Of a DNA stretch of 64,000 nucleotides, positions 14,507 through 52,676 are shown piece after piece. The position numbers were made by a program, and so were the translations under genes. Each line of letters opens with the position of its first letter. Position 1 is the first letter of the stretch. The notes under the pieces are model-generated. The model was not told the DNA's origin. It ran no database searches and saw only the letters and a list, made by a program, of their open reading frames with translations. Origin of the DNA: an uncultured Hyphomicrobiales bacterium. Its GTDB lineage: Bacteria > Pseudomonadota > Alphaproteobacteria > Rhodospirillales > CAYFNC01. The stretch is from the NCBI GenBank assembly GCA_964344345.1, contig CAYFNC010000011.1, forward strand, positions 18,325-82,324. The letters run 5' to 3'.

Positions 14507-14685
14507 TGAACTCCCCCATTTCCCTGTTCGATTGACGACGCCTCGATGGGCGTGCTCCAAGGGTTGTCGCAAAACCCAGGGGTGATTTACTTTTGACTAA
14601 TTAGAGGCGATTCGGGGGCGTTCCGCAAGCTTCAAAAACATGACGAACCAAAGCATCGCCATATTAAAGCGCCGGATAGGAGCCG

Positions 14686-33990: not shown

Positions 33991-35790
33991 TCAGAGACGC
34001 TCCTTGACGTAGGAGCCGGGCGCGGGCTCGATGGGCTTGTAGACGCCACAGCCTTCCTCGCGGGCGGCGACCATGTCCTTGCCCGAAAGCTTGCGCATCC
34101 ACGCGTCCCAATCCGGCCACCAGGAGCCCTCTTTCTCCACCGACTTCTCGAGCCAGGCGTCGGGGTCCTTGGGCGGCTTGCGGTCGTTGACCCAGTAGCA
34201 GTACTTGTTGCCCGCGGGCGGGTTGATCACGCCGGCGATGTGGCCCGACGCCGCCAGCACGAAGCGGTTGGGGCCGCCAAGCAACTGGGTGCCCTTGTAG
34301 GTGGACAGCCACGGCGCGATGTGGTCCTCGCGGGCCGACAGGAAGTACGTCGGGGTCTTGATCTTGCCGAGATCGATGGGAACGTCGCCCAGCACGATCC
34401 CGCCCGGGTCCTTCAGACGGTTCTTCTGGTAGAAATTCCGGAGATAGAAGCTGTGCATCACGGCGGGCATGCGGGTCGAGTCCGAGTTCCAGAACAGAAG
34501 GTCGAACGGGAACGGATCCTTGCCCAGCAGGTAGTTGCTGACCACGAAGGACCAGATCAGGTCGTTGGCGCGCAGCATGTTGAAGGTGCCCGCCATTTCC
34601 GAGCCTTCGAGATAGCCGCGCTCGCTCATCTTCTTCTCGAGGAAGCAGATGGTCTCCTCGTCGATGAAGACGCCCAATTCGCCGGGCTCGGAGAAGTCCA
34701 TCATGGTGGTGAGGAAGGTGGCGCTCTTGATCCGGTCGTCGCCCTTGGCGGCGCAGTAGGCGAGCGTGGAGGCCAGAAGCGTGCCGCCGATGCAGTAGCC
34801 GATGGCGTTGACTTCGGGAACGCCGGTGGCCTTCTCGATCACGTCGATCGCGACGGTGGTGCCCTCGATCACGTAGTCGGCGAAGCTCTTGTTCGCGAGA
34901 CGCTCGTCCGGGTTGACCCACGAGATCATGAAACAGGTGTGGCCCTGGTCCACCGCCCACTTGACCAGCGAGTTCTTCTCGCGGAGGTCCATGATGTAGA
35001 ACTTGTTGATCCAGGCCGGGACGAACAGCAGCGGGCGCTTCAGCACCTTGTCGGTGGTCGGCGTGTACTGGATCAGCTGCATCAGGTCGTTCTGGAAGAT
35101 CACCTTGCCCTTGGTGGTGGCGATGTTTTCGCCGATGGTGAAGGCGTCCATGTCGGTCATGCTGACGCGGAGCGAGCCCTTGCCCCGCTCCAGGTCGCCC
35201 AGCATGTTCTTCAGGCCGTTCAGCAGGTTCTCGCCGCCGGTCTCGATGGTGGTGCGCAGAACCTCGGGATTGGTCATCACGAAGTTGGTGGGCGAGAAGG
35301 CGTCGATGAACTGGCGGGTGTAGAAGTCCACCTTCTGGGCGGTCTTCTCGTCCAGGCCGTCCACGTTGTTGACGGTGGACTGCATCCAGCGCGCGGTCAG
35401 CAGGTAGGACTGCTTCATGAAATTGAAGACTTCGTTCTCGCTCCAGGCCTCGTCCTTGAAGCGGCGGTCTTCGCGCTCGGGCACGATCACGGGCTCGGTC
35501 TCGGCGCCCAGCATGCGGCTGGCCGTGTTCTGCCACAGGTTCAGGTAGTCCTGCCACAGCGACATGCTGGCCTGGGCCAGCTTGCCGGGGTCCGTCATCA
35601 TCTTGGTGGTCATTTCCAGGAAGGCGCTGCCGATGTTCAGGGGATCGGACATCCCGATCGATCCCTCGGCCGCCTGCTTGGTGAGAAATTCGGTCACGAT
35701 CCTCTGGCTGCGCTCGGCGATGTCAGCCATGGACTGGGAAAGCTTTGCAGGATCAGGCATTTGGAAGTTGGCGCCCTGTTGCTCTGCCAT
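33991..35790 (-). CDS. phaC: class I poly(R)-hydroxyalkanoate synthase
   Basis: 599 aa with lipase-box GYCIGG and conserved blocks (LLFVPAWINKFYIMDL, FNMLRANDLIW, W.N.D.TR.P). Confidence 0.92.
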   Translation of the reverse strand: MAEQQGANFQMPDPAKLSQSMADIAERSQRIVTEFLTKQAAEGSIGMSDPLNIGSAFLEMTTKMMTDPGKLAQASMSLWQDYLNLWQNTASRMLGAETEPVIVPEREDRRFKDEAWSENEVFNFMKQSYLLTARWMQSTVNNVDGLDEKTAQKVDFYTRQFIDAFSPTNFVMTNPEVLRTTIETGGENLLNGLKNMLGDLERGKGSLRVSMTDMDAFTIGENIATTKGKVIFQNDLMQLIQYTPTTDKVLKRPLLFVPAWINKFYIMDLREKNSLVKWAVDQGHTCFMISWVNPDERLANKSFADYVIEGTTVAIDVIEKATGVPEVNAIGYCIGGTLLASTLAYCAAKGDDRIKSATFLTTMMDFSEPGELGVFIDEETICFLEKKMSERGYLEGSEMAGTFNMLRANDLIWSFVVSNYLLGKDPFPFDLLFWNSDSTRMPAVMHSFYLRNFYQKNRLKDPGGIVLGDVPIDLGKIKTPTYFLSAREDHIAPWLSTYKGTQLLGGPNRFVLAASGHIAGVINPPAGNKYCYWVNDRKPPKDPDAWLEKSVEKEGSWWPDWDAWMRKLSGKDMVAAREEGCGVYKPIEPAPGSYVKERL

Positions 35791-36071
35791 GGGTCAATCC
35801 TTCGTTTTCTTCAGGTTTTACAGATACTTGACGGACGTATGCGTGCGGTTGGTCGCGCCCCCTTCATCGACACCGTGAAAGTCCGAAACGCCATCCCCGC
35901 CGCGCGCGCACGCGTTGTTTATACAGTCTTAAGGAATTTGATGGCAATCTTCAATTCCGGTTGGACCAAGAATTGTTGGCTTTCGGGGGGCCGCGCGGAC
36001 TAAAATAGGGGAGAACCGCGGCCGGGACCGATTTCGGGGAGCCTGTTTTGAAAAGGGAGAACACGGCCATC

Positions 36072-37241
36072 ATGACGAGGCAACGCACGCCGCGATCTCG
36101 CGCGGCCTTTCGTCGTTGGCGGGGGATTTACGCCGTAATCGCGGCGTTCGCCGGGAGCGCGGCGCTCGTCGGATGCTCCCAGGTGCCGGACGCGATCAAC
36201 CCGATCGAGTGGAGGAACTCGGTCGTCGACGCCTTCACCGACGAGGAGGTGGATGAAAGCTCCGACAAGGAGAACCACTTGGTCGCCGAGCGGGGCGAGG
36301 ACGCTCCCGGCGGCGACAAGCCGTTCCCCAACCTGGGCGAGACCCCGGACAAGCCCAAGACCCTGTCCAAGACCGAGCGCGAGCGCATCGCCGAGGGCCT
36401 GGTGGCCGATCGCCAGGAACGGCGCTACGCCGGCGCCGACATCCGCCGCCAAGGCGACGCGGTGCGTCCCTTGAACGAGGAAGCGGCGTCCGCCTTCCCG
36501 CCCGAACGCCCGTCCATGCCCACCAAGGCGCCGCCCGCGAAGCCCCGGCCCGAGCCCAGGCTCACGCCGCTTCAGGCCCCGGCCTCCTCTCGCCCCCTGA
36601 CCACCGAGGAATCGGTCAAGGCGGTGAAGGAAACCTTCGCCCAGCGCCTCAACGACCCGGTGCCGCCGGGCGCGGGCTCCGGCCCGCCGCGGCTGCGCTC
36701 CACCTCCGACCTTTTCGGCGGCTACCAGGGCGAAACGTCCATGTCCACCGTCGTGGTGTCGTCGGGCGGCATCGACCACGCGGTCGGCGTGCCCATGGGC
36801 CGCATGCTCACGCCCCCGGCCCAGCTCACCCCCGCGCCCGCGAGCTCGCCCGGTCTGCACCGCAGCGCGGGCGGACCGGTCGGCGGGCCGCTCAAGGTCG
36901 CGACCATCCAGTTCGGCAACGGCTCGTCCCGTCTGGGCCAGCGCGACAAGGCGATCCTGCGCGACGTGGTCCGGCTCCAGCGCCAGCGCGGCGGCCGCTT
37001 CCACATCGTCGGACACGCCAGCAGCCGCACCCGGCCCATGGACCCGGTCCGGCATCAGATGGTGAACTTCAAGATCTCGGCCGCCCGGGCCGACGCCATC
37101 GCCCAGGCCCTGATCGGCATGGGGGTCAAGCCCGACGACGTGGTGGTCACCGCCAAGTCCGACGGCGTGCCCATGTTCTACGAGGTCATGCCCACGGGCG
37201 AGGCCGGAAACCGTCGGGCCGTAATCTACCTGATCAACTAA
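36072..37241 (+). CDS. OmpA-family lipoprotein (Pro/Ala-rich linker plus C-terminal OmpA-like domain)
   Basis: Lipobox ALVGCSQ. The C-terminus FGNGSSRL.....L..V......GG.F.IVGHASS...........N..IS..RA.A....L...GV.....V...G resembles an OmpA_C peptidoglycan-binding domain. Confidence 0.7.
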   Translation: MTRQRTPRSRAAFRRWRGIYAVIAAFAGSAALVGCSQVPDAINPIEWRNSVVDAFTDEEVDESSDKENHLVAERGEDAPGGDKPFPNLGETPDKPKTLSKTERERIAEGLVADRQERRYAGADIRRQGDAVRPLNEEAASAFPPERPSMPTKAPPAKPRPEPRLTPLQAPASSRPLTTEESVKAVKETFAQRLNDPVPPGAGSGPPRLRSTSDLFGGYQGETSMSTVVVSSGGIDHAVGVPMGRMLTPPAQLTPAPASSPGLHRSAGGPVGGPLKVATIQFGNGSSRLGQRDKAILRDVVRLQRQRGGRFHIVGHASSRTRPMDPVRHQMVNFKISAARADAIAQALIGMGVKPDDVVVTAKSDGVPMFYEVMPTGEAGNRRAVIYLIN

Positions 37242-37271
37242 ACCGGGGCCCGCGTGGCGGGAATAAAAGGC

Positions 37272-38492
37272 ATGGAGCACGAATTTCACGCCGTACGACG
37301 GCTTCCGCCGTACGTGTTCGCCGAAGTCAACGCGATGAAGAGCCGCGCCCGCGCGGCCGGCGAGGACATCATCGATTTCGGCATGGGCAATCCCGACATG
37401 CCCACGCCCGAGCACATCGTCGAAAAGCTGCGCGAGACCGCGCTGGACGGCCGCACCCACCGTTATTCCAACTCGCGCGGCATTCCGGGGCTGCGCCGGG
37501 CCATCTGCGCCTATTACGAACGGCGCTTCGACGTGTCGCTCGACTTCGAGTCCGAGGCCATCGTGACGCTGGGCTCCAAGGAGGGTCTGGCCAACCTGAC
37601 CTCGGCGATCTCGGCCCCGGGCGACGTGGTGCTGGTGCCCAACCCCAGCTATCCCATCCACCAGTTCGGCTTCATCATCGTCGGCGCGGTGGTGCGCAAC
37701 GTGCCTGTTACGCCGGGCGAGGAGTTCCTCCAGGCCCTGGATCGCGCCGTGCGCCACAGCGTGCCCAAACCGACGGCGGTGGTTCTGAACTACCCCAACA
37801 ATCCCACCTGCCAGGTGGCGGACCTGGACTTCTACGCCGAGGTGGTGGACTTCTGCCGCATGCACGGCATCTACATCCTGTCGGACGTGGCCTATTCCGA
37901 GCTGTACTTCGACGGAAACCCGCCCCCCTCGATCCTGCAGGTGGCGGGCGCGCGCGACATTTCGGTGGAGTTCACCTCGCTGTCCAAGACCTACAACATG
38001 CCGGGCTGGCGCATCGGATTCGCCTGCGGCAACAAACGGCTGATCGCGGCCTTGGCCCGGGTGAAGTCGTATCTCGACTACGGCGCCTTCACCCCGATCC
38101 AGGTGGCGGCGACCGCCGCGCTGAACGGTCCCCAGGACTGCGTCGAGGAAATCCGCGAGACCTATCGCCAGCGGCGCGACGTGTTGATCGAGGGCCTGGC
38201 GGCGGCCGGATGGGAGGTTCCGCTTCCGGTCGCGACCATGTTCGCCTGGGCGCCGATCCCGCCCGCGTTCCAGCACCTGGGCTCGATCGAGTTCTCCAAG
38301 CTTATCCTGCGCGAGGCCCAGGTGGCGATCTCGCCCGGCATCGGCTTCGGCGAGCACGGCGACGGCCACGTCCGCTTCGCCCTGGTGGAGAATTTGCACC
38401 GCACGCGCCAGGCGCTGCGCAACATCAAGTCATTCATGAGCCGATACGATAAAGTGCTGGAAGGGGCGGAGCGCGACCGCGCCGCCGGTTGA
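37272..38492 (+). CDS. class I/II PLP-dependent aminotransferase (AlaC / LL-DAP-aminotransferase-annotated type)
   Basis: RLPPYVFAEVNAMK...DIIDFGMGNPD.PTP, YPNNPT and SLSKTYNMPGWRIGF (PLP-Lys motif). Sits in the conserved position upstream of hom. Confidence 0.85.
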   Translation: MEHEFHAVRRLPPYVFAEVNAMKSRARAAGEDIIDFGMGNPDMPTPEHIVEKLRETALDGRTHRYSNSRGIPGLRRAICAYYERRFDVSLDFESEAIVTLGSKEGLANLTSAISAPGDVVLVPNPSYPIHQFGFIIVGAVVRNVPVTPGEEFLQALDRAVRHSVPKPTAVVLNYPNNPTCQVADLDFYAEVVDFCRMHGIYILSDVAYSELYFDGNPPPSILQVAGARDISVEFTSLSKTYNMPGWRIGFACGNKRLIAALARVKSYLDYGAFTPIQVAATAALNGPQDCVEEIRETYRQRRDVLIEGLAAAGWEVPLPVATMFAWAPIPPAFQHLGSIEFSKLILREAQVAISPGIGFGEHGDGHVRFALVENLHRTRQALRNIKSFMSRYDKVLEGAERDRAAG

Positions 38493-38510
38493 GGGGGAAT
38501 TACACGCACC

Positions 38511-39803
38511 ATGAGCGAGCCTTTGAGGATTGCCGTCGCCGGACTGGGAACCGTGGGCGGCGGCGCGGTGAAACTGTTGCTGGAGAACGCGGCGCTGCTG
38601 GAAAAGCGCTGCGGCCGTCCGTTGAAGCTGGTGGCGGTGGCGGAAAGGGACGCGGGCCGGGACATCGGCGTTTCCCTTGACGGGATCGACCGGCTCGACG
38701 ACGCGTCCAAGCTTCCCGAACGCGACGACGTGGACGTGGTGGTGGAGCTGATCGGCGGCTCGGGCGGCATCGCCAAGACCCTTTGCGAAAGCGCGCTCAA
38801 CGCCGGAAAGCACGTGGTCACCGCCAACAAGGCGCTCATCGCCCACCACGGCAACGCATTCGCCCGCATCGCCGAGGCCAAGGGCGTGAGCCTTTGTTAC
38901 GAGGCCGCGGTGGCGGGCGGCATCCCCATCATCAAGGCCCTGCGCGAGGGGCTCGCGGGCAACGGGATCGGGCGCGTCTACGGCATCATGAACGGCACCT
39001 GCAACTACATCCTGACCCAGATGCGCGAATCGGGCCGGGAGTTCGACGACGTGCTGAAGGAGGCCCAGGAGCTCGGCTACGCCGAGGCCGACCCGTCCTT
39101 CGACGTGGATGGGGTGGACACGGCCCACAAGCTCGCCATCCTCGCCGCGCTGGCCTTCGGCTGCGAGATCGACTTCGACGCGGTCCAGATGGAGGGCATC
39201 CGCCACGTGTCCCCGGTGGACATCGAATACGCGGAAGAGCTCGGCTACCGCATCAAGCTTCTGGGCGTGGCCTCCAAGACCGACGCGGGCGTGGAGCAGC
39301 GGGTCCAGCCCTGCATGGCGCCCAAGGACGCTCCCATCGCCCAGGTCGAGGGCGTGTTCAACGCCGTCGTCGTGGACGGGGATTACGTGGACACCACGGT
39401 CTACCAGGGCCGAGGCGCGGGCGAGCGCCCGACCGCGTCCGCCGTGGTCGCCGACATCGCCGATCTGGCGCGCGGCCTTTCGTTGCCCACGCTCGGCGTT
39501 CCGGTGGGCGATCTCGCGCCGTCGCGCCCGGCGGCGACGGACCTGCACCAGGGGGCCTACTACGTGCGGCTGATGGTGCTGGACAAGCCGGGCGTCTTCG
39601 CCGACGTGGCCAAGATTCTCCGCGACCACCAGGTGTCCATGGAATCGATCATCCAGCGCACGCGCCGCCCCGGCGAGCCCGTGCCCGTGGTCATGACCTT
39701 CCACGAGACCCGCGAGCTGGCCGCCCAGGGCGCGTTGGTCGACATCGAGGCCTTGGACGCGGTGGTCGAGCCGCCGCGCATGATCAGGATCGAATCCTTT
39801 TAA
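38511..39803 (+). CDS. hom: homoserine dehydrogenase
   Basis: IAVAGLGTVGGG, TANKAL, EAAVAGGIPII, NGT.NYILT.M and DVDG.D.AHKL motifs plus a C-terminal ACT domain. Confidence 0.92.
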   Translation: MSEPLRIAVAGLGTVGGGAVKLLLENAALLEKRCGRPLKLVAVAERDAGRDIGVSLDGIDRLDDASKLPERDDVDVVVELIGGSGGIAKTLCESALNAGKHVVTANKALIAHHGNAFARIAEAKGVSLCYEAAVAGGIPIIKALREGLAGNGIGRVYGIMNGTCNYILTQMRESGREFDDVLKEAQELGYAEADPSFDVDGVDTAHKLAILAALAFGCEIDFDAVQMEGIRHVSPVDIEYAEELGYRIKLLGVASKTDAGVEQRVQPCMAPKDAPIAQVEGVFNAVVVDGDYVDTTVYQGRGAGERPTASAVVADIADLARGLSLPTLGVPVGDLAPSRPAATDLHQGAYYVRLMVLDKPGVFADVAKILRDHQVSMESIIQRTRRPGEPVPVVMTFHETRELAAQGALVDIEALDAVVEPPRMIRIESF

Positions 39804-39831
39804 AACAGAAAACCCGGCGAGGGGGGGGGCC

Positions 39832-40806
39832 ATGCCATATCTTCAGGAGATCAGCCGCGAACAGCCCGGCGTGTTCCTGTTTCTGATCGACCAGTCCAAA
39901 TCCATGGAGGAGCCGTTCGCCCACAACAACGCGGGCGAGCCGATCAGCCGCGCCGCAGTGGTGGCCGAGGCGCTGAACAACACGCTGGAGGAACTGGTCA
40001 ACCGCTGCGTCCGAGACGAGGGCGTGCGGGATTATTTCCACGTCGGCGTCATCGGCTACGGCAAGTTCAACCGAGCGGCGTTCAGCTGGGAGGGCGAGAT
40101 GGCCAAGCGGTCCATCGTGTCCATCTCGCGCGTCGCCCGCAACGCCACGGTCGAGGAGCAGGAGATCGAGACCACGGTCCGCGGCCAGACCGTGCGGGAA
40201 AGGGCCACGGTCTATCGCTGGGTCACCCCCCAGGCGGTGGGCAGCACGCCCATGAACAGCGCCTTCCAACTGGCGCATCAGGCCATGGAGCAATGGGTCT
40301 ACCGCCACCCCCAGTCCTATCCGCCCATCGTCATCAACATCACCGACGGCATGGCCAACGACGTGGAGAGCAAGGAGGAGTTGCTGGCGAGCGCCCGACG
40401 GCTCACCGACCTCAAGACCACCGACGGGAACGTCCTGCTCATCAACTGCCACATTTCCGGCGGCGAAAACGAACCGGTGGTGTTCCCCTGGAGCCCGCTG
40501 GACCTGCCCAAGGATTCCTACGCCCGTCTCCTGTTCGAGATGTCGAGCGAGATTTCTGAACGGCTGCGCGACGTGATCTGCGAGATCTTCGGCCGCGACG
40601 CGTCGCAGATCCCCATGCTCAAGGGCATGGCCTACAACGCCGACGCGGTGGCCTTGGTCAAGGTGCTCGACATCGGCACCCGCCAGGCGATCGTGCTGCC
40701 CTCGGACGCGGGCTTCGATTCCCTGACAACGAACGACGCCCCGGTCGAGATCGAGCCCGCTCCCGAGGAGGAGAAACCGACCGAGGGGCCCGAGAGCTTC
40801 TCCTGA
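39832..40806 (+). CDS. von Willebrand factor A (TerY-like) protein, first gene of the vWA/PP2C/kinase triad
   Basis: MIDAS residues are present: LIDQSKSM (DxSxS), GSTPM (Thr), NITDGMAND (Asp). Starts 28 nt after the hom stop with a G-rich Shine-Dalgarno sequence. Confidence 0.75.
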   Translation: MPYLQEISREQPGVFLFLIDQSKSMEEPFAHNNAGEPISRAAVVAEALNNTLEELVNRCVRDEGVRDYFHVGVIGYGKFNRAAFSWEGEMAKRSIVSISRVARNATVEEQEIETTVRGQTVRERATVYRWVTPQAVGSTPMNSAFQLAHQAMEQWVYRHPQSYPPIVINITDGMANDVESKEELLASARRLTDLKTTDGNVLLINCHISGGENEPVVFPWSPLDLPKDSYARLLFEMSSEISERLRDVICEIFGRDASQIPMLKGMAYNADAVALVKVLDIGTRQAIVLPSDAGFDSLTTNDAPVEIEPAPEEEKPTEGPESFS

Positions 40807-40819
40807 CGCGAGCCCGACC

Positions 40820-41947
40820 ATGACGCCTCCGGACCTGGAAATCGAAGCGGAGGGCCGTATCCGCGTTTACGGCAGGACGACGGCCAAGCCCAAGAACGAC
40901 CGCGTCGTCCAGAACGCCAAGGCGAAATGGCGCGCCAACGAGGATCGGTTCCGTCTTTCGCAAAAGGGCGACCGCATTGTCTGCGCCGTGTCCGACGGCG
41001 CCGGATCGTCCGGCATGTACTGCGGGGCCTGGGCGGAGACCCTGGTCAGCAAGCTGCCCAACAAGCCCCTGAAGAACTTCAAGGCCCTGAACGACTGGAT
41101 GGAAGGGTTCTGGCAGGGGTTTTCCGAAAAGTACAAGATGCTGTCGGCGTCCGAGACCTTCAAGCGCAACAAGTTCGTGCGCGAGGGCTCGTGCGCCACG
41201 CTCACCGCCTGCTGGGTCAAGCCCATAGAGGGCGGGGCCAGACTCTATTGGATGGCCTACGGCGACAGCCCGCTGATGATCTTCCAGGACAAGGCGAACG
41301 GGCCGCGCATGTTCTTTCCCGATTCCCTGGCGTCCTTCGACCACGCCCCGCACCTTCTGAACTGGAAGGACCTTCCGGACGAAAGCCAGTTCCACGCCGG
41401 GACCGTGGACCTGAAGGGTCCGGCCAAGGTGGTCTTGGCCTCCGACGGCATGGGGCAATTCTTGCTGCTGCGTCACCTGTCGGACATGTTCCGCAACATG
41501 GGCGAACGGAACGGCGAGGCCGCCCTGATGGACGAGTTCGCCCGCTTCGTGAAACGGCCCCAGGGCCGGATGGCGAACCTGGTCCGCTCCCATCTCGCGT
41601 CCCCGGGACCCGGCATCCTGCGCGAGCTCGACGCCATCCGCGACAACATGGAGGACGACGAGAGCTTCGCCGCCATGGCCGAACGTTGCCACGCGCAAAA
41701 ACTTCTGCCCAACGACGACGCCACATTGGTGATCATCGAAATCGAGCCGCCGTTGCCCGAGCCCGAGCCGGAACCTGAGCCCGAGGAGGAAACGGCCTCC
41801 GACGACGAGGAGACGGCGGTTGCGGAGCCCGAGCCCCAGCTCGAGCTGGCGCTGGAGGCCCCTCCGGAACAGGAGCCGCAAACCGAACCCGAGCAAGAGC
41901 CCGAACCGGCGCCCGAACCCGAACCGGAGCCCCAAGAGCCGTCATGA
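40820..41947 (+). CDS. PP2C-family Ser/Thr phosphatase-like protein with an acidic Pro/Glu-repeat tail
   Basis: AVSDGAGSSG, YGDSPL and LASDGMGQF are metal-binding Asp motifs of the PP2C_2 type. The C-terminal 80 aa are EP/PE repeats. Confidence 0.65.
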   Translation: MTPPDLEIEAEGRIRVYGRTTAKPKNDRVVQNAKAKWRANEDRFRLSQKGDRIVCAVSDGAGSSGMYCGAWAETLVSKLPNKPLKNFKALNDWMEGFWQGFSEKYKMLSASETFKRNKFVREGSCATLTACWVKPIEGGARLYWMAYGDSPLMIFQDKANGPRMFFPDSLASFDHAPHLLNWKDLPDESQFHAGTVDLKGPAKVVLASDGMGQFLLLRHLSDMFRNMGERNGEAALMDEFARFVKRPQGRMANLVRSHLASPGPGILRELDAIRDNMEDDESFAAMAERCHAQKLLPNDDATLVIIEIEPPLPEPEPEPEPEEETASDDEETAVAEPEPQLELALEAPPEQEPQTEPEQEPEPAPEPEPEPQEPS

Positions 41948-42936
41948 CCTATCCGCTGATCAACGACTACAAAGCCGCCATGCGCAATCCGACCGCCCGC
42001 TTCGCCAGCTTGACGGTCGATCCCGCGACCACGTCCAAGGGCCAGCCGGTGTTTTTGGCCGGGAACTTCGCCTGCGTGTTCAAGGGCCGGCTGAACGGCG
42101 CCGAGACGCCCTCGGCCATCAAGTGCTTCATCCGCGACATGCCGGACCTGGAGCGCCGCCACGCGGCGATTGCGGACATCATCAAGAGCCTGGACGCGCC
42201 CTACCTTCCGGATTTGGCGTTCCATCCGGGCGAGTTGTTCGTCAGCTCCGAGGTGGCGGACAGCGGCGACTATCCCGTGGTCACCATGCCCTGGATCGAG
42301 GGCGAGACCCTGAGCGCGACGGTCAAGCGCCTTTGCGAGGGGGCGAGGCGGGACGCGCTGGTCGGGCTCGGCCGGGCGTGGGCGAACCTGTGCCTGAACA
42401 TGCTGTCGGCCGGGATATCCCACGGCGACCTGAAACACGACAACATCCTGATCGACAAGTCGGGCAAGCTGATGCTGATCGATTGCGAGTCCATCTACAC
42501 CCCGGCGCTGAACGGCCTTCCGGCGATCCTGCTCGGCGGCGTGAACTATCAGCACCCCAAGCGCGAGGCCAAGCATTTCGACGGGGACCTCGACCATTTC
42601 TCCATGCTGGTGATCGCGCTGACCTTGCGCGCGCTGGCGTTCGAGCCCGGGCTTCTGGAAAAGCACTGCAACGGCGAGAACCTGATCCTCACGCGCGAAG
42701 ACTTCAACGCGCCCGACCGCTCCGAACTTATCGCCCGGCTCAAGTCCAGTCCCGACGGCCTGATCCGGGAATGGACCGACCAGATGGTCGAGGCGCTGGC
42801 GGGCGAGTCCATGGCCATCCCCAAGATCAAGCGAACCCTGAAACAGGCCAAGCTCGCCGAAGCCGAGCCGGTCGAGGGCCGCTGGGCGATGATGACGGCG
42901 TCGGTGGAATTGCCGTGGAAGAAGAAAAAGGGTTAA
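41944..42936 (+). CDS. atypical Ser/Thr protein kinase-like protein
   Basis: FLAGNFACVFKG (degenerate Gly loop), AIKCF (VAIK Lys), catalytic loop HGDLKHDNILI, and LIDCE in place of DFG. ATGA overlap with the phosphatase gene. Confidence 0.7.
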   Translation: MTYPLINDYKAAMRNPTARFASLTVDPATTSKGQPVFLAGNFACVFKGRLNGAETPSAIKCFIRDMPDLERRHAAIADIIKSLDAPYLPDLAFHPGELFVSSEVADSGDYPVVTMPWIEGETLSATVKRLCEGARRDALVGLGRAWANLCLNMLSAGISHGDLKHDNILIDKSGKLMLIDCESIYTPALNGLPAILLGGVNYQHPKREAKHFDGDLDHFSMLVIALTLRALAFEPGLLEKHCNGENLILTREDFNAPDRSELIARLKSSPDGLIREWTDQMVEALAGESMAIPKIKRTLKQAKLAEAEPVEGRWAMMTASVELPWKKKKG

Positions 42937-43784
42937 TCCAGCAGCTCTATAATCCGCTCCATCGCCTCCGCGGAGCCCAGCGGGATGGAGACGTGCGGCC
43001 CCTTGGGGACGTCATGGTCCCGGGGATTGACCCGGACCAGCACGCCGCGCGCGCCCCGGGCGGCGGCTTCGGACGTGCGCCGGACCGTGGGCACCGCCTT
43101 TCCGGCGCCGAACTCCAACACGACAAGGGAATGCCTGGCCCGCTCCAATCCCTCCAACCAACGGTGCATGCGCCGCGACTGGGTGTTGTAGCGGGTGCCG
43201 ATCCAGGTCCAGTCGCCGAACAGCATGATGTTGGGCCTGGCGACCTCGCGGCAGTGGGGGCAGCGGGGCAGCGGGCTGGTGGCCCGGAAGCGATCCATGT
43301 CGATGTCGAGCTTGACCGCGTCCGCGGGCCAGGTCTCGTGCGCGCAGGGCTTGGTGCATTGCAGGTAATGGATCGAGCCGTGGCATTCCTCGATCCGGTT
43401 TTCCGAAAAGCCCGCCTTCTGGAACTGCCCGTCCACGTTGGAGGTGAAGACGTAGTAGCCGCCGGGCTTGGACTCGCCAAGCGCCAACAGCCGGGCGAAC
43501 CCGGAATGGGGCTCGGTCTTGCGATAAAGGTCGAGGCGATGGCCGTAGAACGCCCAGGCGAAGTCGGGCTCGTGGGCGAACCAGTGCGGGTTGGCCATGT
43601 CGGCGAAATCCATGCCCATCTTGGCGATGGGGGGATAGGCCTTCCAGAATCCCTCGCGGCCCCGGAAATCGGGCAGGCCGGAGTCCACGCCCATGCCGGC
43701 CCCGGCGGTGATCAGGACCGCGTCGGCCCCGGCCACCGCCTCGGCCGCGTGAATCAGGTTCCTTTCGAGCAGATCGACGGGCAT
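42933..43784 (-). CDS. SIR2-family NAD-dependent protein deacylase
   Basis: ITAGAGMGVDSGLPDFRG, FTSNVDGQF, CHGS and a Zn ribbon (C.KPC...CPHC). Lies 4 nt downstream of metZ. Its 3' end overlaps the kinase 3' end by 4 nt, convergent. Confidence 0.8.
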   Translation of the reverse strand: MPVDLLERNLIHAAEAVAGADAVLITAGAGMGVDSGLPDFRGREGFWKAYPPIAKMGMDFADMANPHWFAHEPDFAWAFYGHRLDLYRKTEPHSGFARLLALGESKPGGYYVFTSNVDGQFQKAGFSENRIEECHGSIHYLQCTKPCAHETWPADAVKLDIDMDRFRATSPLPRCPHCREVARPNIMLFGDWTWIGTRYNTQSRRMHRWLEGLERARHSLVVLEFGAGKAVPTVRRTSEAAARGARGVLVRVNPRDHDVPKGPHVSIPLGSAEAMERIIELLD

Positions 43785-43788
43785 GGGC

Positions 43789-44988
43789 TCAGCCGGTGGC
43801 GGCCTTGAGGGCCTGGTCCAGGTCCTCCTTGATGTCGTCGATGTGCTCGAGCCCCACCGAGACGCGCACCATGTTCTGGTCGATGCCCATGGCGAGGCGC
43901 TCGTCCTCGGTCAGGCGCTGGTGGGTGGTGGTGGACGGGTGGGTGGCCAGGCTCTTGGCGTCGCCGAGATTGTTGGAGATGTCCACCAGCTTGAGCGAAT
44001 CCAGGAACCGGAACGCCGCCTCGCGCCCGCCGCCCGCGAGCTCGAACGCGACCACGCCGCCGCCCGCCGTCATCTGCTTCATGGCCAGCGCGTGCTGGGG
44101 ATGGCTTTCGAGCCCGGGATAGAGCACCCGGTCCACCCCGTCGCGGGCTTCCAGGAAATGGGCCGCGGCGAGCGCGTTCTGGCAATGGCGCTCCATGCGG
44201 AGCTCCAAGGTCTCGATTCCCTTGAGCAGCACCCAGGCGTTGAAGGGGCTCAGCGCCGGTCCGGTGTTGCGGAGAAACGGCACCAGCTCGTTTTCCATCC
44301 ATTCCCCGTCGTTGGTCAGGATGGCCCCGCCCAAGGAGCGTCCCTGTCCGTCCAGGTGCTTGGTGGCGGAGTAAATCGTCACGTCCGCGCCCATGTCCAA
44401 GGGCCGTTGCAGGACGGGCGTCGCGAACACGTTGTCGACCACCACACGGGCCCCGGCCGCGCGGCCCATTTCGCACACCGCCGGAACGTCGATGATCTTG
44501 AGCGTCGGGTTGGACGGGGTCTCGAGGAAGATGGCGTCGGTCTTGGTCGCGAGCGCGTCCTTCCACTGATCCAGGTCGGTTCCGTCCACAAGCACGGTCT
44601 CGACGCCGTAGCGGGGCAAAAGCTGGGCGACGATGAAATGGCACGACCCGAACAGCGCGTTGGACGCCACCACCCGGGAGCCCGCCCTGACCGACGCCAA
44701 CAGCGCCGCGTTGACCGCCGCCATGCCGCTGGCGGTGGCCATGCAGAATTCGGCCCCGTCCAGCGCGGCCATGCGGGCCTCGAACATGCCGACGCTGGGA
44801 TTGGCGAATCGAGAGTAGACGAAGCGCTTCTTCTCGCCGGTGAACGCCGCCTCGGCCTCGGCCGCGGACTCGTAGACATAGCCCGATGTCATGAAGATGG
44901 CCTCGGACGTCTCGCAGAAGCCGGAGCGCTGGGTCCCGCCGCGCACCAGGGTGGTCGCGCGGCGGCGCGAAGTCGTGTTGTCGGCCAT
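43789..44988 (-). CDS. metZ: O-succinylhomoserine sulfhydrylase (Cys/Met-metabolism PLP enzyme)
   Basis: TTLVRGG..RS.F.ETSEA.F.TSGY, SATKHLDGQGR (PLP-Lys) and LGD.KSL..HP..TTH are present. An AAGGAGGA Shine-Dalgarno sequence lies 5 nt before the ATG at 44988. Confidence 0.85.
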   Translation of the reverse strand: MADNTTSRRRATTLVRGGTQRSGFCETSEAIFMTSGYVYESAAEAEAAFTGEKKRFVYSRFANPSVGMFEARMAALDGAEFCMATASGMAAVNAALLASVRAGSRVVASNALFGSCHFIVAQLLPRYGVETVLVDGTDLDQWKDALATKTDAIFLETPSNPTLKIIDVPAVCEMGRAAGARVVVDNVFATPVLQRPLDMGADVTIYSATKHLDGQGRSLGGAILTNDGEWMENELVPFLRNTGPALSPFNAWVLLKGIETLELRMERHCQNALAAAHFLEARDGVDRVLYPGLESHPQHALAMKQMTAGGGVVAFELAGGGREAAFRFLDSLKLVDISNNLGDAKSLATHPSTTTHQRLTEDERLAMGIDQNMVRVSVGLEHIDDIKEDLDQALKAATG

Positions 44989-45016
44989 GAAGTCCTCCTT
45001 GCCGGGGCGGCCCAAG

Positions 45017-45044
45017 AAAAAACCCGGCCGCGAAAAAGCCGGGT
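45017..45044 (-). terminator. leader terminator/attenuator between the SAM-II element and metZ
   Basis: Minus strand reads ACCCGGC-UUUUUCGCG-GCCGGGU followed by UUUUUC, about 28 nt upstream of the metZ ATG. Confidence 0.6.
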
Positions 45045-45057
45045 CGTGCGCCTCGGA

Positions 45058-45110
45058 CCTTTTAGCGGGGTTTTTTTACGTGGCCGCAAGCCGGTCGCCA
45101 AATCACCACG
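45058..45110 (-). promoter_or_regulatory. SAM-II (SAM-alpha) riboswitch in the metZ leader
   Basis: Minus strand reads GUGGUGAUUUGGCGACCGGCUUGCGGCCACGUAAAAAAACCCCGCUAAAAGG. It has a P1 (GUGG/CCAC) and a pseudoknot AUUUGGC/GCUAAA(A). The conserved GAUUUGGC, GGCUUGC and GCUAAA blocks match my memory of the metA/SAM-II motif. Confidence 0.7.
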
Positions 45111-45118
45111 TTGGTTAA

Positions 45119-45147
45119 CGCATACTCCCACGGCGCGAAATCGTCAA
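45119..45147 (-). promoter_or_regulatory. candidate sigma-70 promoter for the metZ leader (TTGACG-17 nt-TATGCG)
   Basis: Read on the minus strand. The -10 ends about 9 nt before the riboswitch P1. The -10 is weak. Confidence 0.4.
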
Positions 45148-51173: not shown

Positions 51174-51228
51174 GAAAACATTATTGCCGTCATGAGGTTA
51201 AGGCAAGATACTAAGGCAACGAACATAC

Positions 51229-51243
51229 GTTCACTATATGTTC
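51229..51243. promoter_or_regulatory. GTTC-N7-GTTC direct repeat (alphaproteobacterial LexA/SOS-box pattern) abutting the -35
   Basis: GTTC at 51229-51232, ACTATAT, then GTTC at 51240-51243. It is embedded in the palindromes GAACATACGTTC and GAACATA-N9-TATGTTC. Two TAAGGCAA direct repeats lie just upstream (51199, 51212). Confidence 0.45.
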
Positions 51244-51272
51244 TTGACAAAGCCGACACACTAGGTTAAATT
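51244..51272 (+). promoter_or_regulatory. near-consensus sigma-70 promoter (TTGACA-17 nt-TAAATT) at the left edge of the low-GC island
   Basis: Perfect -35, 17-nt spacer, and 4 of 6 matches in the -10, read directly. Confidence 0.55.
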
Positions 51273-51427
51273 TCCTATTGTGTTGGCTGGAGCGAGACCG
51301 ATGATAAAGCATCTGCATTCTGTCCTGTCTATGCATCTGAAAATCCATCAAAACCTTGTGGCAACGGTTAATCACGTGTTAGTGTATAAAATGTATTTTT
51401 GGATTGACGGCAATAGGAGGCGCAATT

Positions 51428-51559
51428 ATGAATACCCTCTCAAGCCTACGTCCGATAAGAGGCCTGCTTTCGGTGCCGGAAAAATCCGACTGTTCTCTAC
51501 TGCATCGTCAGCTCCACACGGTCCGCATGCACAATCAGGAGAGGGGAACGGCAATATGA
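51428..51559 (+). CDS. candidate mini-ORF (43 aa) inside the low-GC island
   Basis: Not in the ORF track (under 60 aa). An AGGAGG Shine-Dalgarno sequence lies 9 nt before the ATG at 51428. Translation: MNTLSSLRPIRGLLSVPEKSDCSLLHRQLHTVRMHNQERGTAI. Its stop overlaps the next ATG (ATATGA). Confidence 0.35.
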   Translation: MNTLSSLRPIRGLLSVPEKSDCSLLHRQLHTVRMHNQERGTAI

Positions 51560-51777
51560 CCTCAACTGCTCAAGCTCAACACTTTTTTGAGCCTCTAAAA
51601 GCAGATGACTTCAAGGTCACACCGATAGGCGAACTGATGGATAAACATTCTGGGCTTCGGGAAGCAGCGAGGACAAACCTCGGAAACTCCCAAGAAGAGC
51701 ACAATGACGAGGAAGCGGACGCGGAGCTTCCTAGTTTGGCTTCGGGAGTCTGGAAGTCTCTGCGCCACACAACCTAA
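51556..51777 (+). CDS. candidate small acidic protein (73 aa) inside the low-GC island
   Basis: ATG at 51556 is preceded by AGGAGAGGGGA. Translation begins MTSTAQAQHFFEPLKADDFKV and ends in an acidic segment. A terminator hairpin follows. The 165-aa version in the ORF track (from GTG 51280) has an implausible N-terminus. Confidence 0.4.
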   Translation: MTSTAQAQHFFEPLKADDFKVTPIGELMDKHSGLREAARTNLGNSQEEHNDEEADAELPSLASGVWKSLRHTT

Positions 51778-51803
51778 ACCCAAACGAATTCAGCATAAAG
51801 TAT

Positions 51804-51830
51804 GGCCCCATGTTAATGGGGCTTTACTTT
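51804..51830 (+). terminator. terminator-like hairpin (GCCCCA-TGTTAA-TGGGGC followed by TTTACTTT)
   Basis: 6-bp GC stem with an interrupted T-tract, 27 nt after the small-ORF stop. Confidence 0.5.
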
Positions 51831-51880
51831 GCCACAACACAAATGGTTGTAAATCTATAGAGTAGGGGGCGTTTTCCCAA

Positions 51881-52654
51881 ATGACTGGACATGATCATTA
51901 CTCCACTAGCGGTAAAAAAGTTGTTGCCTGTGACCAAGAGACAAAGAAAATTAGTCCGGTTGAACCTTGCATGGTGGATGATCGACCTCAGACATGCGAA
52001 TTGATACCGTCGGGATATGGATATTTTTGTCAATATGAGCGGGACATCATAGATCTTCGCCGAGAGAATCTTCAAAACATCTATAATAATTTAGAAAAAC
52101 TATCAGAAGCCGAAGAACAAAATCAGAAACTCCCCGCATTTTGTACGTATGAATACAATCCATTGATTGCAACAGAATTGTGTGAATATTACATGAATGA
52201 CTTAAAGCGAGATCGTGGAGCTCATGGGCTTTCAGGAGGAAGCAGCAAGGTGCGTAGAGCTGCCTATATGAGCCGGCTGGTGGCTAAACATAAGCCAATT
52301 ATCCTGCGCTTCCCCGAGCCATTTATGAAGGCCGACAGATTATCAAAAATGCTAAACATAGCAACTGAAACAAAAAACTTATCTAAACCGCATGAAGACG
52401 AAGACCTTCCTGAGTGGTTCTTGAGGTTAAACCAGACATTTTCCATTTTGACTTTCTATTATTATCTTGGAGTAAAGGAAAAAACCCTAGAAAAGCTACC
52501 AAACCGTAGCAAAATTGACAAAATTATAGAGTTCACTCTCATCCACCGCGACCCTGATGTTGAGATGTTGATGGCATTGGGGCAAACAATTGTCTCCTTT
52601 GCCGAATTTGCAGAAATGCGGGACAATTCGAAGGAAGAAAAAGAAGCTTCCTAG
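51881..52654 (+). CDS. orphan protein (257 aa), Cys-rich N-terminus, no family recognised
   Basis: A 774-nt open frame in DNA of about 35% G+C, where stops should be frequent, argues for coding. No motif known to me is present. Confidence 0.55.
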   Translation: MTGHDHYSTSGKKVVACDQETKKISPVEPCMVDDRPQTCELIPSGYGYFCQYERDIIDLRRENLQNIYNNLEKLSEAEEQNQKLPAFCTYEYNPLIATELCEYYMNDLKRDRGAHGLSGGSSKVRRAAYMSRLVAKHKPIILRFPEPFMKADRLSKMLNIATETKNLSKPHEDEDLPEWFLRLNQTFSILTFYYYLGVKEKTLEKLPNRSKIDKIIEFTLIHRDPDVEMLMALGQTIVSFAEFAEMRDNSKEEKEAS

Positions 52655-52676
52655 GATTGCTTTGATGCAATAACCG

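What the first reader, a model, noticed from the sequence alone, without database searches (positions are those of the whole stretch)
39832..42936. vWA / PP2C / atypical kinase triad (TerY-P type) appended to the aminotransferase-hom operon
Three consecutive genes encode the triad. The first is a vWA protein with an intact MIDAS (DQSKS...T...D). The second is a PP2C-like phosphatase (SDGAGS, GDS, SDGMG) ending in an 80-aa Pro/Glu repeat tail. The third is a kinase-fold protein with HGDLKHDN but a degenerate Gly loop and DCE instead of DFG. The spacings are a 13-nt gap and an ATGA overlap. This matches the computationally defined TerY-phosphorylation triad. As far as I recall, that triad has also been listed among experimentally screened anti-phage candidates (TerY-P). 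Its mechanism and target are not understood. The context here is unusual. The triad has host-like G+C and starts only 28 nt after hom, with no visible terminator. Its last gene overlaps by 4 nt the 3' end of a convergent SIR2 gene. There are no mobile-element hallmarks. That suggests a domesticated signalling module rather than a mobile defence island.
Basis: partly seen in the sequence, partly recalled or inferred. Interest (0 to 1): 0.65.

Follow-up and report, generated by a model that had tools for sequence, protein, structure and literature searches.

The report
Kinase-only TerY-P phospho-switch triad
Three intact neighbouring genes encode a metal-site adaptor protein, a phosphatase and a bare protein kinase of the known but mechanistically unsolved 'TerY-P' family; this copy sits in ordinary chromosomal DNA, lacks the extra kinase domain of the phage-defence versions, and its closest relatives lie inside magnetosome gene clusters.

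Summary
Three intact co-directional genes sit at 39832-42936: a TerY-type vWA, a PP2C and a Hanks-type kinase. Spacings, motifs and host-like composition are as stated; the Pro/Glu tail is ~70 aa, not 80. All three proteins hit PADLOC's TerY-P models, and the triad is syntenic in about 30 other genomes.

- The kinase is kinase-only. It matches positions 1-301 of the 562-position STK_OB profile, and a confident AF2 model shows one kinase domain. It therefore lacks the OB fold of the validated defence system and the zinc ribbon of CoCoNuT-linked triads.
- The SIR2 neighbour is a canonical sirtuin in a convergent metZ operon led by a SAM-II riboswitch. It is unrelated to the triad.
- The context is unique. 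Relatives have AT-hom-glpX-recJ, so the triad sits at a synteny break.

Unexpectedly, 31 of 46 closest loci place the module within 10 kb of magnetosome genes (MamY/X/Z, MamD/G/C, FeoAB). Others lie beside an MmeI restriction gene or IS elements. The window has no mam genes.

Most likely this is a chromosomally fixed MIDAS-gated Ser/Thr phospho-switch. Its biological role (regulation or phage defence) is unresolved.

The parts
37254..39803 (+). Upstream context: class I/II aminotransferase (37254-38492) and homoserine dehydrogenase hom (38511-39803). This is a widely conserved AT-hom pair.
   Evidence: Pfam Aminotran_1_2 at 5e-60; Homoserine_dh at 6e-68 plus NAD_binding_3 and ACT. AT-hom is conserved in most of 80 metagenome loci, where glpX and recJ follow hom.
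39804..39831 (+). 28-nt hom-TerY spacer. It contains a purine-rich, SD-like stretch and a G9 homopolymer (39821-39829) ending 2 nt before the TerY ATG.
   Evidence: Sequence read. No terminator-like site lies in the gap. G9 is the longest G/C run in the 64 kb; all others are 7 or shorter.
39832..40806 (+). TerY-type vWA protein, 324 aa, soluble and acidic. The MIDAS is intact: D20, S22, S24 (nt 39889-39903), T139 and D172. It ends in a short acidic Pro/Glu tail.
   Evidence: PADLOC TerY PDLC02224 at 9.2e-64, covering profile positions 1-274 of 277. Pfam VWA_2 is weak. MIDAS residues are invariant in 43 homologues. No TM segment. No sequence relative in the PDB.
40820..41734 (+). PP2C (PPM) Ser/Thr phosphatase catalytic core, residues 1-305. 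All metal-binding acidic motifs are present: E41-D42, D59-G60, G148-D149-S150, D209-G210, D299-D300.
   Evidence: Pfam PP2C_2 at 1.3e-7, 31.8 bits against a gathering score of 24. PADLOC PP2C PDLC02222 at 4e-13. Motif conservation in 29 homologues.
41735..41947 (+). Lineage-specific Pro/Glu-rich low-complexity tail of the PP2C. It spans residues 306-375 (20 Pro and 25 Glu of 70; pI about 4), followed by the stop codon.
   Evidence: Composition. The DNA consists of imperfect 6- and 18-nt repeats. Homologues end 10-45 aa after the NDD motif, with variable short tails.
41944..42936 (+). Hanks-type Ser/Thr kinase, 330 aa, kinase domain only. Key residues are K60 (nt 42121-42123), HGDLKHDN 160-167 (nt 42421-42444) and D180-C-E (nt 42481-42489). 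The P-loop is the variant 'AGNFACV'.
   Evidence: PADLOC STK_OB PDLC02223 at 3.4e-49, matching profile positions 1-301 of 562 only. AF2 model with pLDDT 88.9 and pTM 0.85. Foldseek matches PknB, IRAK4, JAK3 and LIMK1 over about 300 columns. Invariant catalytic residues.
42933..45119 (-). Convergent, unrelated transcription unit. It comprises a SAM-II riboswitch (45041-45119) with a terminator-like hairpin (45045-45021), the metZ-like Cys/Met PLP enzyme (43789-45015), and a canonical sirtuin (42933-43784).
   Evidence: Rfam SAM_alpha RF00521 at 61.8 bits. Terminator-like site. Pfam Cys_Met_Meta_PP at 4e-131 and SIR2 at 3e-20. Sirtuin relatives are Sir2-Af1 and SIRT5. No PADLOC hit. No co-occurrence with the triad elsewhere.

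Best explanation
This is an intact, chromosomally fixed TerY-P-type three-protein phospho-switch of a minimal, kinase-only subtype.

Shown:
- A cytoplasmic vWA protein with a complete MIDAS metal-ion site (TerY).
- A PP2C phosphatase with all its metal-binding motifs.
- A Hanks-type kinase with all catalytic residues but no accessory domain.
- The three genes are packed tightly (13-nt gap, 4-nt overlap) and conserved as a unit in an alphaproteobacterial clade.

Inferred:
- The MIDAS face of TerY captures a ligand, either a protein acidic residue or a metal-dependent partner.
- That binding gates the kinase, which phosphorylates TerY itself and/or other cellular proteins. The PP2C resets the state.
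- Because the kinase lacks the OB or zinc-ribbon module of the defence-associated forms, output must go through protein phosphorylation rather than nucleic-acid binding.
- The copy here was inserted at a synteny break directly after hom, has fully adopted host codon usage, and is probably read through from the aminotransferase-hom transcript.
- I lean towards a regulatory or stress (possibly metal-related) signalling role rather than an autonomous phage-defence role, but this is the weakest step.
For: Identity: all three PADLOC TerY-P models hit, and Pfam PP2C_2 is above its cut-off.

Catalytic competence: MIDAS, PP2C and kinase catalytic residues are invariant across 27-43 homologues. The AF2 kinase model is confident (pLDDT 88.9) and aligns to active Hanks kinases over the whole length.

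Unit character: the TerY-PP2C-STK order recurs in about 30 loci, and a TerY-STK dyad in about 12 more.

Kinase-only subtype:
- 77 close homologues are 305-342 aa.
- Non-alphaproteobacterial relatives are 470-1033 aa with variable C-terminal domains.
- Only 3 of the top 150 representatives of a family of 4,956 clusters or more are 345 aa or shorter.

Fixation in the host:
- GC3 and codon usage equal the neighbours.
- There are no repeats, adjacent tRNA, integrase or transposase.
- The family is absent from viral contigs. It occurs on only 2 of 72,556 plasmids, and only distantly.

Synteny break: relatives have AT-hom-glpX-recJ, and glpX and recJ are absent from the window.

Regulatory lean:
- The clade keeps a stable position next to mamY-mamX-mamZ and mamD/G-feoAB genes across several genera. 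That is unlike fast-turnover defence cargo.
- vWA proteins are known to act within kinase/phosphatase regulatory circuits, as in Sulfolobus ArnA/ArnB with PP2A (PMC7472852, listed) and the Deinococcus DRA0331-0334 operon.
Against: - There are no expression or phosphorylation data. No sequencing runs could be retrieved.
- The strongest profile matches are to models built from an anti-phage system.
- Some of the nearest relatives sit beside an MmeI-type restriction-modification gene or among IS elements and phage remnants. Magnetosome islands are themselves mobile, IS-rich islands (PMC3197154). A defence role is therefore fully compatible.
- The kinase P-loop is non-canonical, and the alpha-C Glu position (E70 here) is not strictly conserved in the family. 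Activity is inferred, not shown.
- Co-transcription with hom rests only on a 28-nt gap and the absence of a consensus terminator or promoter.
Confidence: 0.5

Rival explanations
1. It is an autonomous anti-phage defence system (TerY-P sensu Gao et al. 2020). Infection is sensed through TerY. The kinase then phosphorylates host or phage proteins to abort or block infection, and the PP2C prevents autoimmunity.
For: - All three PADLOC TerY-P HMMs hit.
- TerY-P is reported active against T7-like phages (PMC7699616).
- The wider kinase family shows immune-like diversification: variable C-terminal domains, tandem kinase paralogues and a patchy distribution.
- Close relatives lie beside an MmeI restriction-modification gene and amid IS and prophage debris.
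Against: - The OB fold of the validated system is absent (PMC11090510).
- No other defence genes or island features are in the 64 kb.
- Composition is fully ameliorated.
- The clade is stably linked to magnetosome operons across genera.
- No relatives occur on viral contigs, and almost none on plasmids.
Confidence: 0.3
2. It is an accessory module of magnetosome or iron biology. This clade would be a metal-sensing phospho-switch that tunes biomineralisation or Fe uptake. The window's copy would then belong to a magnetotactic or formerly magnetotactic lineage whose mam genes lie elsewhere.
For: - 31 of 46 closest loci have Mam markers within 10 kb. The triad is often 24-306 nt from, and divergent to, mamY.
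- The paralogous dyad sits next to mamD/G-like, mamF-like and feoAB genes.
- NCBIfam equivalog hits lie above their cut-offs for MamY, X, Z, C, D, G and K.
- In Rhodovastum the triad follows MamK/M/O/H-like genes.
- The original hypothesis for TerY-P was a metal-sensing switch (quoted in PMC11090510).
Against: - No mam-like gene is anywhere in the 64-kb window.
- MAI regions outside the mam/mms operons were dispensable for magnetosome formation in M. gryphiswaldense (PMC3197154; PMC7676999).
- The model strains did not appear among the hits.
- Co-location could be hitch-hiking on a mobile island.
- Some relatives are not next to mam genes.
Confidence: 0.15
3. It is a pathway-specific regulator of Thr/Met biosynthesis, phosphorylating homoserine dehydrogenase or neighbouring enzymes. 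The idea comes from its position between hom and the SAM-riboswitch-controlled metZ operon.
For: The triad starts 28 nt after hom with no terminator. It is flanked on the other side by metZ behind a SAM-II riboswitch.
Against: - None of 78 triad loci has hom, the aminotransferase, metZ or the sirtuin nearby.
- None of 80 hom loci has the triad.
- The association is therefore a one-off consequence of a rearrangement.
Confidence: 0.04

Closest known systems
TerY-phosphorylation (TerY-P) triad as defined computationally by Anantharaman, Iyer and Aravind 2012 (paper not held; described in PMC11090510 and PMC4978471)
   Same: It has a TerY-like vWA with MIDAS, a PP2C phosphatase and a Ser/Thr kinase as three adjacent co-directional genes. 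It was hypothesised to be a metal-sensing, phosphorylation-dependent switch.
   Different: The described triads are typically embedded in DNA-processing, restriction or WXG100-FtsK clusters. This one stands alone in housekeeping DNA, and its kinase has no C-terminal domain.
TerY-P stand-alone anti-phage system (Gao et al. 2020; PADLOC models TerY, PP2C and STK_OB)
   Same: All three proteins match the PADLOC models, with TerY matching over its full length. The gene order is the same.
   Different: The kinase of the validated system is fused at its C-terminus to an OB fold (PMC11090510). The window's kinase stops after the kinase domain, covering profile positions 1-301 of 562. Anti-phage activity has not been tested.
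CoCoNuT type II / III-A associated TerY-P triads (eLife 2024, PMC11090510)
   Same: The same three protein families.
   Different: In those triads the kinase carries a C-terminal zinc ribbon, and the triad is part of cnuH/cnuE/McrBC-type operons. None of these features is present here. Distant homologues P0078 and P0090 are of that zinc-ribbon type.
Sulfolobus ArnA (FHA) / ArnB (vWA) with Hanks kinases and PP2A, and the Deinococcus DRA0331-0334 vWA-STPK-FHA-PP2C operon
   Same: These are non-defence regulatory circuits in which a vWA protein is encoded or acts together with Ser/Thr kinases and a phosphatase (PMC7472852 abstract; bioRxiv 2026.01.23.701218). This is the closest precedent for how the triad may work.
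   Different: They include an FHA phospho-reader, and in Deinococcus the kinase is membrane-bound. No sequence-family membership was tested or claimed.
McaA, the vWA/MIDAS protein of magnetosome positioning in M. magneticum AMB-1 (PMC9512821)
   Same: It is a MIDAS-dependent vWA protein encoded in a magnetosome island.
   Different: McaA is a membrane protein of more than 600 aa with a periplasmic vWA and no kinase or phosphatase partner. It is not the same family.

Membership tests
TerY-P triad (computational definition, 2012) | TerY-like vWA protein with an intact MIDAS | tested here: met
   PADLOC TerY at 9.2e-64, covering profile 1-274 of 277. D20, S22, S24, T139 and D172 are invariant in 43 homologues.
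TerY-P triad (computational definition, 2012) | PP2C-family Ser/Thr phosphatase | tested here: met
   Pfam PP2C_2 at 31.8 bits against a cut-off of 24. PADLOC PP2C at 4e-13. Metal-binding motifs are conserved.
TerY-P triad (computational definition, 2012) | Ser/Thr kinase of the triad-associated family | tested here: met
   PADLOC STK_OB at 3.4e-49 over the kinase part. Invariant K60, D162, N167 and D180. AF2 and Foldseek show a Hanks fold.
TerY-P triad (computational definition, 2012) | The three genes are adjacent and co-directional, and co-occur across genomes | tested here: met
   13-nt gap and ATGA overlap. The same order recurs in about 30 loci from diverse genomes.
TerY-P anti-phage system (Gao 2020 / PADLOC TerY-P) | Kinase fused at its C-terminus to an OB fold | tested here: not met
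   Only profile positions 1-301 of 562 match. The 330-aa protein is one kinase domain in a confident AF2 model. The feature itself is taken from PMC11090510.
TerY-P anti-phage system (Gao 2020 / PADLOC TerY-P) | Confers resistance to phages (T7-like in the original report) | not testable with these tools
   This needs plaque assays. The PADLOC and DefenseFinder pipelines themselves were not run; only their HMM level was reproduced.
TerY-P anti-phage system (Gao 2020 / PADLOC TerY-P) | Location in a defence island or mobile context | tested here: not met
   Neighbours are housekeeping genes with no PADLOC hits, and there is no integrase or transposase. Composition is host-like.
CoCoNuT-associated TerY-P | Kinase with a C-terminal zinc ribbon, next to cnuH/cnuE/McrBC-type genes | tested here: not met
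   No zinc-ribbon Pfam hit and no C-terminal domain. No such neighbours.
SIR2-based defence (Thoeris, DSR or SIR2-HerA type), considered for the overlapping neighbour | Defence-type SIR2 NADase that co-occurs with the system | tested here: not met
   No PADLOC hit. NCBIfam and PDB relatives are CobB, Sir2-Af1 and SIRT5 deacylases. It lies in the metZ operon behind a SAM-II riboswitch. It is absent from all related triad loci.
Magnetosome-gene-cluster-embedded TerY/PP2C/STK module (clade seen here in relatives) | Adjacency to mam, mms or feoAB1 genes | tested here: not met
   Met in 31 of 46 related loci. No mam-like gene is in the 64-kb window. The rest of the genome is not visible.
Magnetosome-gene-cluster-embedded TerY/PP2C/STK module (clade seen here in relatives) | Kinase-only architecture (305-345 aa) and sequence clade membership | tested here: met
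   45-55% identity to 77 kinase-only homologues. It branches inside the alphaproteobacterial clade in an NJ tree, on a long branch.

The most novel reading that the evidence does not exclude
The kinase-only alphaproteobacterial TerY/PP2C/STK clade may be a conserved, so far undescribed accessory component of magnetosome gene clusters. It would be a MIDAS-based metal-sensing phospho-switch, with a triad next to mamXY and a paralogous dyad next to mamD/G-feoAB, coupling iron or biomineralisation status to Ser/Thr phosphorylation. The window's copy would then be either an exapted escapee or a marker of a cryptic or former magnetotactic lineage. This would give the first physiological, non-defence role for a TerY-P module.
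Probability: 0.17. Interest if true: 0.75.

Novelty: new variant of a known kind. Interest (0 to 1): 0.5.

Why it matters
TerY-P is a widespread three-gene module whose trigger, substrate and output are unknown. Only its OB-fused form has been shown to protect against phages.

A stripped-down version could be the simplest system in which to ask what the MIDAS protein senses and what the kinase phosphorylates. This version has a bare kinase, no effector domain, and a fixed place in housekeeping DNA.

The closest relatives are built into magnetosome gene clusters of many magnetotactic bacteria, and I found no paper in the held library describing this. That finding offers a concrete, testable link between TerY-P and metal biology, which was the original 2012 hypothesis. 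Alternatively, it would show that magnetosome islands carry their own defence cargo. Either outcome would be informative.

Tried and rejected
- SIR2 as a fourth component: rejected. It is a canonical sirtuin in the metZ operon and never co-occurs with the triad.
- Recent horizontal insertion detectable by composition, repeats or tRNA: no signal.
- RNA-seq test of co-transcription with hom: no runs could be listed for the region.
- Sigma-70 promoter scan over 36.0-45.4 kb: nothing found, which is uninformative for an alphaproteobacterium.
- Primary TerY-P papers (Gao 2020, Anantharaman 2012): not held under DOI or PMC id. Secondary descriptions were used instead.
- McaA as a possible identity of the MGC-linked vWA: rejected, because it has a different architecture.
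- Literature searches for the triad in magnetosome clusters found nothing relevant. The term sets were magnetosome + PP2C/von Willebrand, + TerY, + mamXY + kinase, and MTB-specific + kinase.
- Viral contigs: no relatives. Plasmids: only two distant cyanobacterial megaplasmid copies.
- Sequence search of the PDB for TerY and PP2C: no hits.
- The low-GC patch and other orphan ORFs of the window as hidden defence genes: no PADLOC or Pfam hits.
- I did not model TerY or PP2C structures or a complex. The locus-derived TerY and PP2C homologues could not be handed to the predictor, and the HMM evidence was already decisive.


Full report
**1. Observation**

- 39832-40806, 324 aa.
- 40820-41947, 375 aa.
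- 41944-42936, 330 aa.

Reading the junctions directly confirms the stated spacings. There is a 28-nt gap after the hom stop codon, a 13-nt gap, an ATGA start/stop overlap, and a TTAA stop/stop overlap with a convergent SIR2 gene. GC3 (0.86-0.90) and a codon-adaptation index computed against neighbouring genes cannot be told apart from the flanking housekeeping genes. The large antisense ORFs are the usual shadow ORFs of a 65% G+C genome.

No terminator-like hairpin lies between hom and the first gene. No meaningful direct or inverted repeats flank the triad. The only tRNA is 6 kb upstream. Pfam scans of 20 further window proteins show sensor kinases, a sigma factor, EPSP synthase, NadA, glutamate synthase and similar genes, with no integrase or transposase. 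It is encoded by imperfect 6/18-nt repeats.

**2. Identity of the three proteins**

PADLOC's three TerY-P models all hit:
- TerY at 9.2e-64, over essentially the whole profile.
- PP2C at 4e-13.
- STK_OB at 3.4e-49.

Pfam places the second protein in PP2C_2 above the gathering score. It gives weak kinase-superfamily hits for the third.

I aligned the kinase with 26 homologues from a 5.8-billion-protein search. The beta3 lysine (K60), the catalytic loop HGDLKHDN (160-167) and the Mg-binding Asp (D180) are invariant. The odd P-loop 'AGNFAxV' is likewise a family trait, not decay.

In 43 TerY homologues the MIDAS residues are invariant: D20, S22, S24, T139 and D172. In 29 PP2C homologues the acidic metal-binding motifs are conserved. 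All three proteins are soluble and acidic. They therefore look catalytically competent and under purifying selection.

**3. The kinase is kinase-only**

The STK_OB profile has 562 positions, and the window protein matches 1-301. An AlphaFold2 model built on the alignment is confident (pLDDT 88.9, pTM 0.85). It shows a single bilobal kinase domain spanning the whole chain. Foldseek aligns about 300 columns to PknB, IRAK4, JAK3, LIMK1 and similar kinases.

According to the CoCoNuT paper (PMC11090510), TerY-P kinases come in two C-terminally fused forms. One carries a zinc ribbon, in CoCoNuT systems. The other carries an OB fold, in the stand-alone system shown by Gao et al. 2020 to defend against phages (T7-like phages according to PMC7699616).

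The length data agree that the window's form is unusual:
- 77 close homologues are 305-342 aa.
- More distant homologues carry zinc ribbons or longer tails.
- The non-alphaproteobacterial relatives in genome contigs have 470-1033 aa kinases with LRR-like, FGE-sulfatase-like or WG-repeat-like C-termini.
- In an exhaustive profile search the family has 4,956 representative clusters at E<=1e-30. Only 3 of the best 150 representatives are 345 aa or shorter.

The window's protein thus belongs to a distinct minimal subtype.

**4. Co-occurrence**

A scan of 185,579 species genomes with the kinase profile returned 78 loci. A tblastn map of the window's proteins onto them gave three results:
- The order TerY-PP2C-STK appears in about 30 alphaproteobacterial loci and in many Bacteroidota, Campylobacterota and other loci.
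- A paralogous TerY-STK dyad without PP2C appears in about a dozen. Several genomes carry both forms, and in L009 they lie 7 kb apart.
- None of these loci has hom, the aminotransferase, the sirtuin or metZ nearby.

The refutation criterion 'the three genes fail to co-occur' is therefore clearly not met.

**5. The local context is a one-off**

I fetched 80 metagenome loci around relatives of the window's hom; the closest are only 63-64% identical, so the host lineage is poorly sampled. The phaC(-)...aminotransferase-hom arrangement is widely conserved among them. However, hom is followed by glpX and recJ. Neither gene is anywhere in the window. The triad therefore occupies a synteny breakpoint immediately after hom.

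On the other side, Rfam finds a SAM-II (SAM_alpha) riboswitch at 45041-45119(-). A terminator-like hairpin follows it, directly upstream of the metZ-like gene. The sirtuin gene starts 4 nt after metZ ends.

The sirtuin has no PADLOC hit. Its best NCBIfam and PDB relatives are CobB, Sir2-Af1 and SIRT5-type deacylases. It belongs to a convergent SAM-regulated methionine operon, not to the triad.

**6. An unexpected lead from the relatives**

I clustered the neighbours of the alphaproteobacterial loci and scanned representatives against Pfam and NCBIfam. Equivalog-level matches above curated cut-offs are:

| Protein | Bits |
|---|---|
| MamY | 703 |
| MamX | 442 |
| MamZ | 1055 |
| MamC | 138 |
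| MamD | 334 |
| MamG | 110 |
| MamK | 447 |

MamO scores 707, just below its cut-off. FeoA/FeoB, magnetochrome and hemerythrin domains are also present.

In Magnetospirillum, Paramagnetospirillum, Terasakiella PR1, LM-1 and several MAGs the triad is transcribed divergently from mamY-mamX-mamZ, with 24-306 nt between them. The dyad sits next to mamD/G-like, MamF-like (this one recognised by eye only) and feoAB genes. Overall, 31 of 46 loci have a Mam marker within 10 kb, and most of the rest are short contigs. In Rhodovastum atsumiense the triad follows MamK/M/O/H-like genes.

Other close relatives sit elsewhere. One dyad is followed directly by an MmeI-type restriction-modification gene. One triad lies among IS elements and phage capsid/protease remnants.

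The window itself has no mam-like gene. In an NJ tree its kinase is a long branch inside the alphaproteobacterial clade (indicative only).

I found no paper in the held library that mentions this module in magnetosome clusters. The M. gryphiswaldense literature treats inter-operon MAI genes as dispensable for magnetosome formation (PMC3197154; PMC7676999). The model strains did not appear among the hits. McaA, the known magnetosome vWA protein, has a different architecture.

**7. Mobility**

No relative was found on IMG/VR viral contigs. Only two cyanobacterial megaplasmids out of 72,556 plasmids carry a distant copy, at 25-35% identity.

**8. How it most likely works**

Shown: three intact enzymes or adaptors with conserved active sites, encoded as a tight unit.

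Inferred:
- TerY's MIDAS binds a ligand. For vWA domains this is classically an acidic side chain of a partner protein completing the metal coordination.
- That binding gates the kinase, which phosphorylates TerY and/or other proteins. The PP2C resets the state.
- With no OB or zinc ribbon, output must be protein phosphorylation.
- The acidic Pro/Glu tails of the PP2C and of TerY could act as MIDAS pseudo-ligands. This is speculation and is untested. The long PP2C tail is specific to this genome.

Precedents for vWA proteins operating within kinase/phosphatase regulatory circuits exist in Sulfolobus (ArnA/ArnB, PMC7472852) and are proposed in Deinococcus.

On biological role, I lean to regulation (0.5). 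The reasons are loss of the variable C-terminal module, stable synteny with mam operons in relatives, full amelioration, and the housekeeping context. Autonomous phage defence (0.3) remains a serious rival. It is supported by the PADLOC matches, by relatives beside restriction-modification and IS elements, and by the island nature of MAIs.

**9. Comparison and novelty**

The triad meets every testable feature of the 2012 computational TerY-P definition. It fails one defining feature of the experimentally validated defence system, the OB-fused kinase, and of the CoCoNuT-linked form, the zinc ribbon. I therefore file it as a new variant of a known kind: kinase-only and chromosomally fixed. It belongs to a clade whose usual home is the magnetosome gene cluster.

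Interest is moderate (0.5). The module itself is known. The minimal architecture and the magnetosome link are new leads that make the open question 'what does TerY-P sense and do?' more tractable.

Noticed in passing
window 45041-45119 (-), with 43789-45015 (-) and 42933-43784 (-): A SAM-II (SAM_alpha, RF00521, 61.8 bits) riboswitch with a terminator-like hairpin precedes a metZ-like PLP enzyme. A canonical sirtuin gene starts 4 nt after metZ. This suggests a SAM-regulated metZ-sirtuin operon, which is an unusual pairing.
   Followed up: partly
window 39821-39829: A G9 homopolymer ends 2 nt before the TerY start codon. It is the longest G/C run in the 64 kb (all others are 7 or shorter). It could be a slipped-strand site affecting translation initiation. 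No population data were available to check for length variation.
   Followed up: partly
L004-L045 (e.g. L021 3767-10966; L008 4204-10505; L009 98-11164; L084 1562-10975): The closest relatives of the triad, and a paralogous TerY-STK dyad, lie inside magnetosome gene clusters. They sit next to mamY-mamX-mamZ, mamD/G/C-like genes and feoAB, or at the end of a mamK/M/O/H block. This holds for 31 of 46 loci. I found no description of this in the held literature.
   Followed up: yes
L082 9030-13839 and L083 2024-6833: In two MAGs the TerY-STK dyad is preceded by a JAB-domain protein. It is immediately followed by a 932-aa MmeI-type restriction-modification gene, which is a defence-island-like context.
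   Followed up: no
L008 9342-10505 and equivalents (L005, L007, L009, L010, L012, L013): The 387-aa kinase of the Magnetospirillum-type dyad has a C-terminal extension. It ends in a SHOCT-like motif (...LRKLKAALDEGLISQADYDGQKAKIMENF), recognised by eye.
   Followed up: no
L065 3825-12893: A Bacteroidota locus has TerY-PP2C followed by four tandem paralogous kinases. In the exhaustive search many top representatives contain two kinase domains. This kind of diversification is typical of immune-type gene families.
   Followed up: no
window 51200-52700: A low-GC patch (0.49 against about 0.65) holds two orphan ORFs: 51280-51777 (165 aa) and 51881-52654 (257 aa). Neither has a Pfam or PADLOC hit. 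It is probably a small foreign insertion.
   Followed up: partly
window 61000-62000 (+): A strong AT skew (0.63) is caused by a Lys/Glu/Ala-rich coiled-coil protein. It has units of about 90 nt in tandem (AEEKAKKLEADA...KALKAKVEETEKKLKA).
   Followed up: no
window 33991-39803 versus L086-L165: phaC(-)...aminotransferase-hom-glpX-recJ is a widely conserved arrangement. In the window it is broken right after hom, and glpX and recJ are absent from the 64 kb. The nearest hom relatives are only 63-64% identical, so the host lineage is poorly represented in public data.
   Followed up: yes
window 13001-14572 (-): A 523-aa multihaem c-type cytochrome (Multi-haem_cyto, MtrC/MtrF-like hits) lies next to a CHASE2-adenylate/guanylate cyclase gene.
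   Followed up: no
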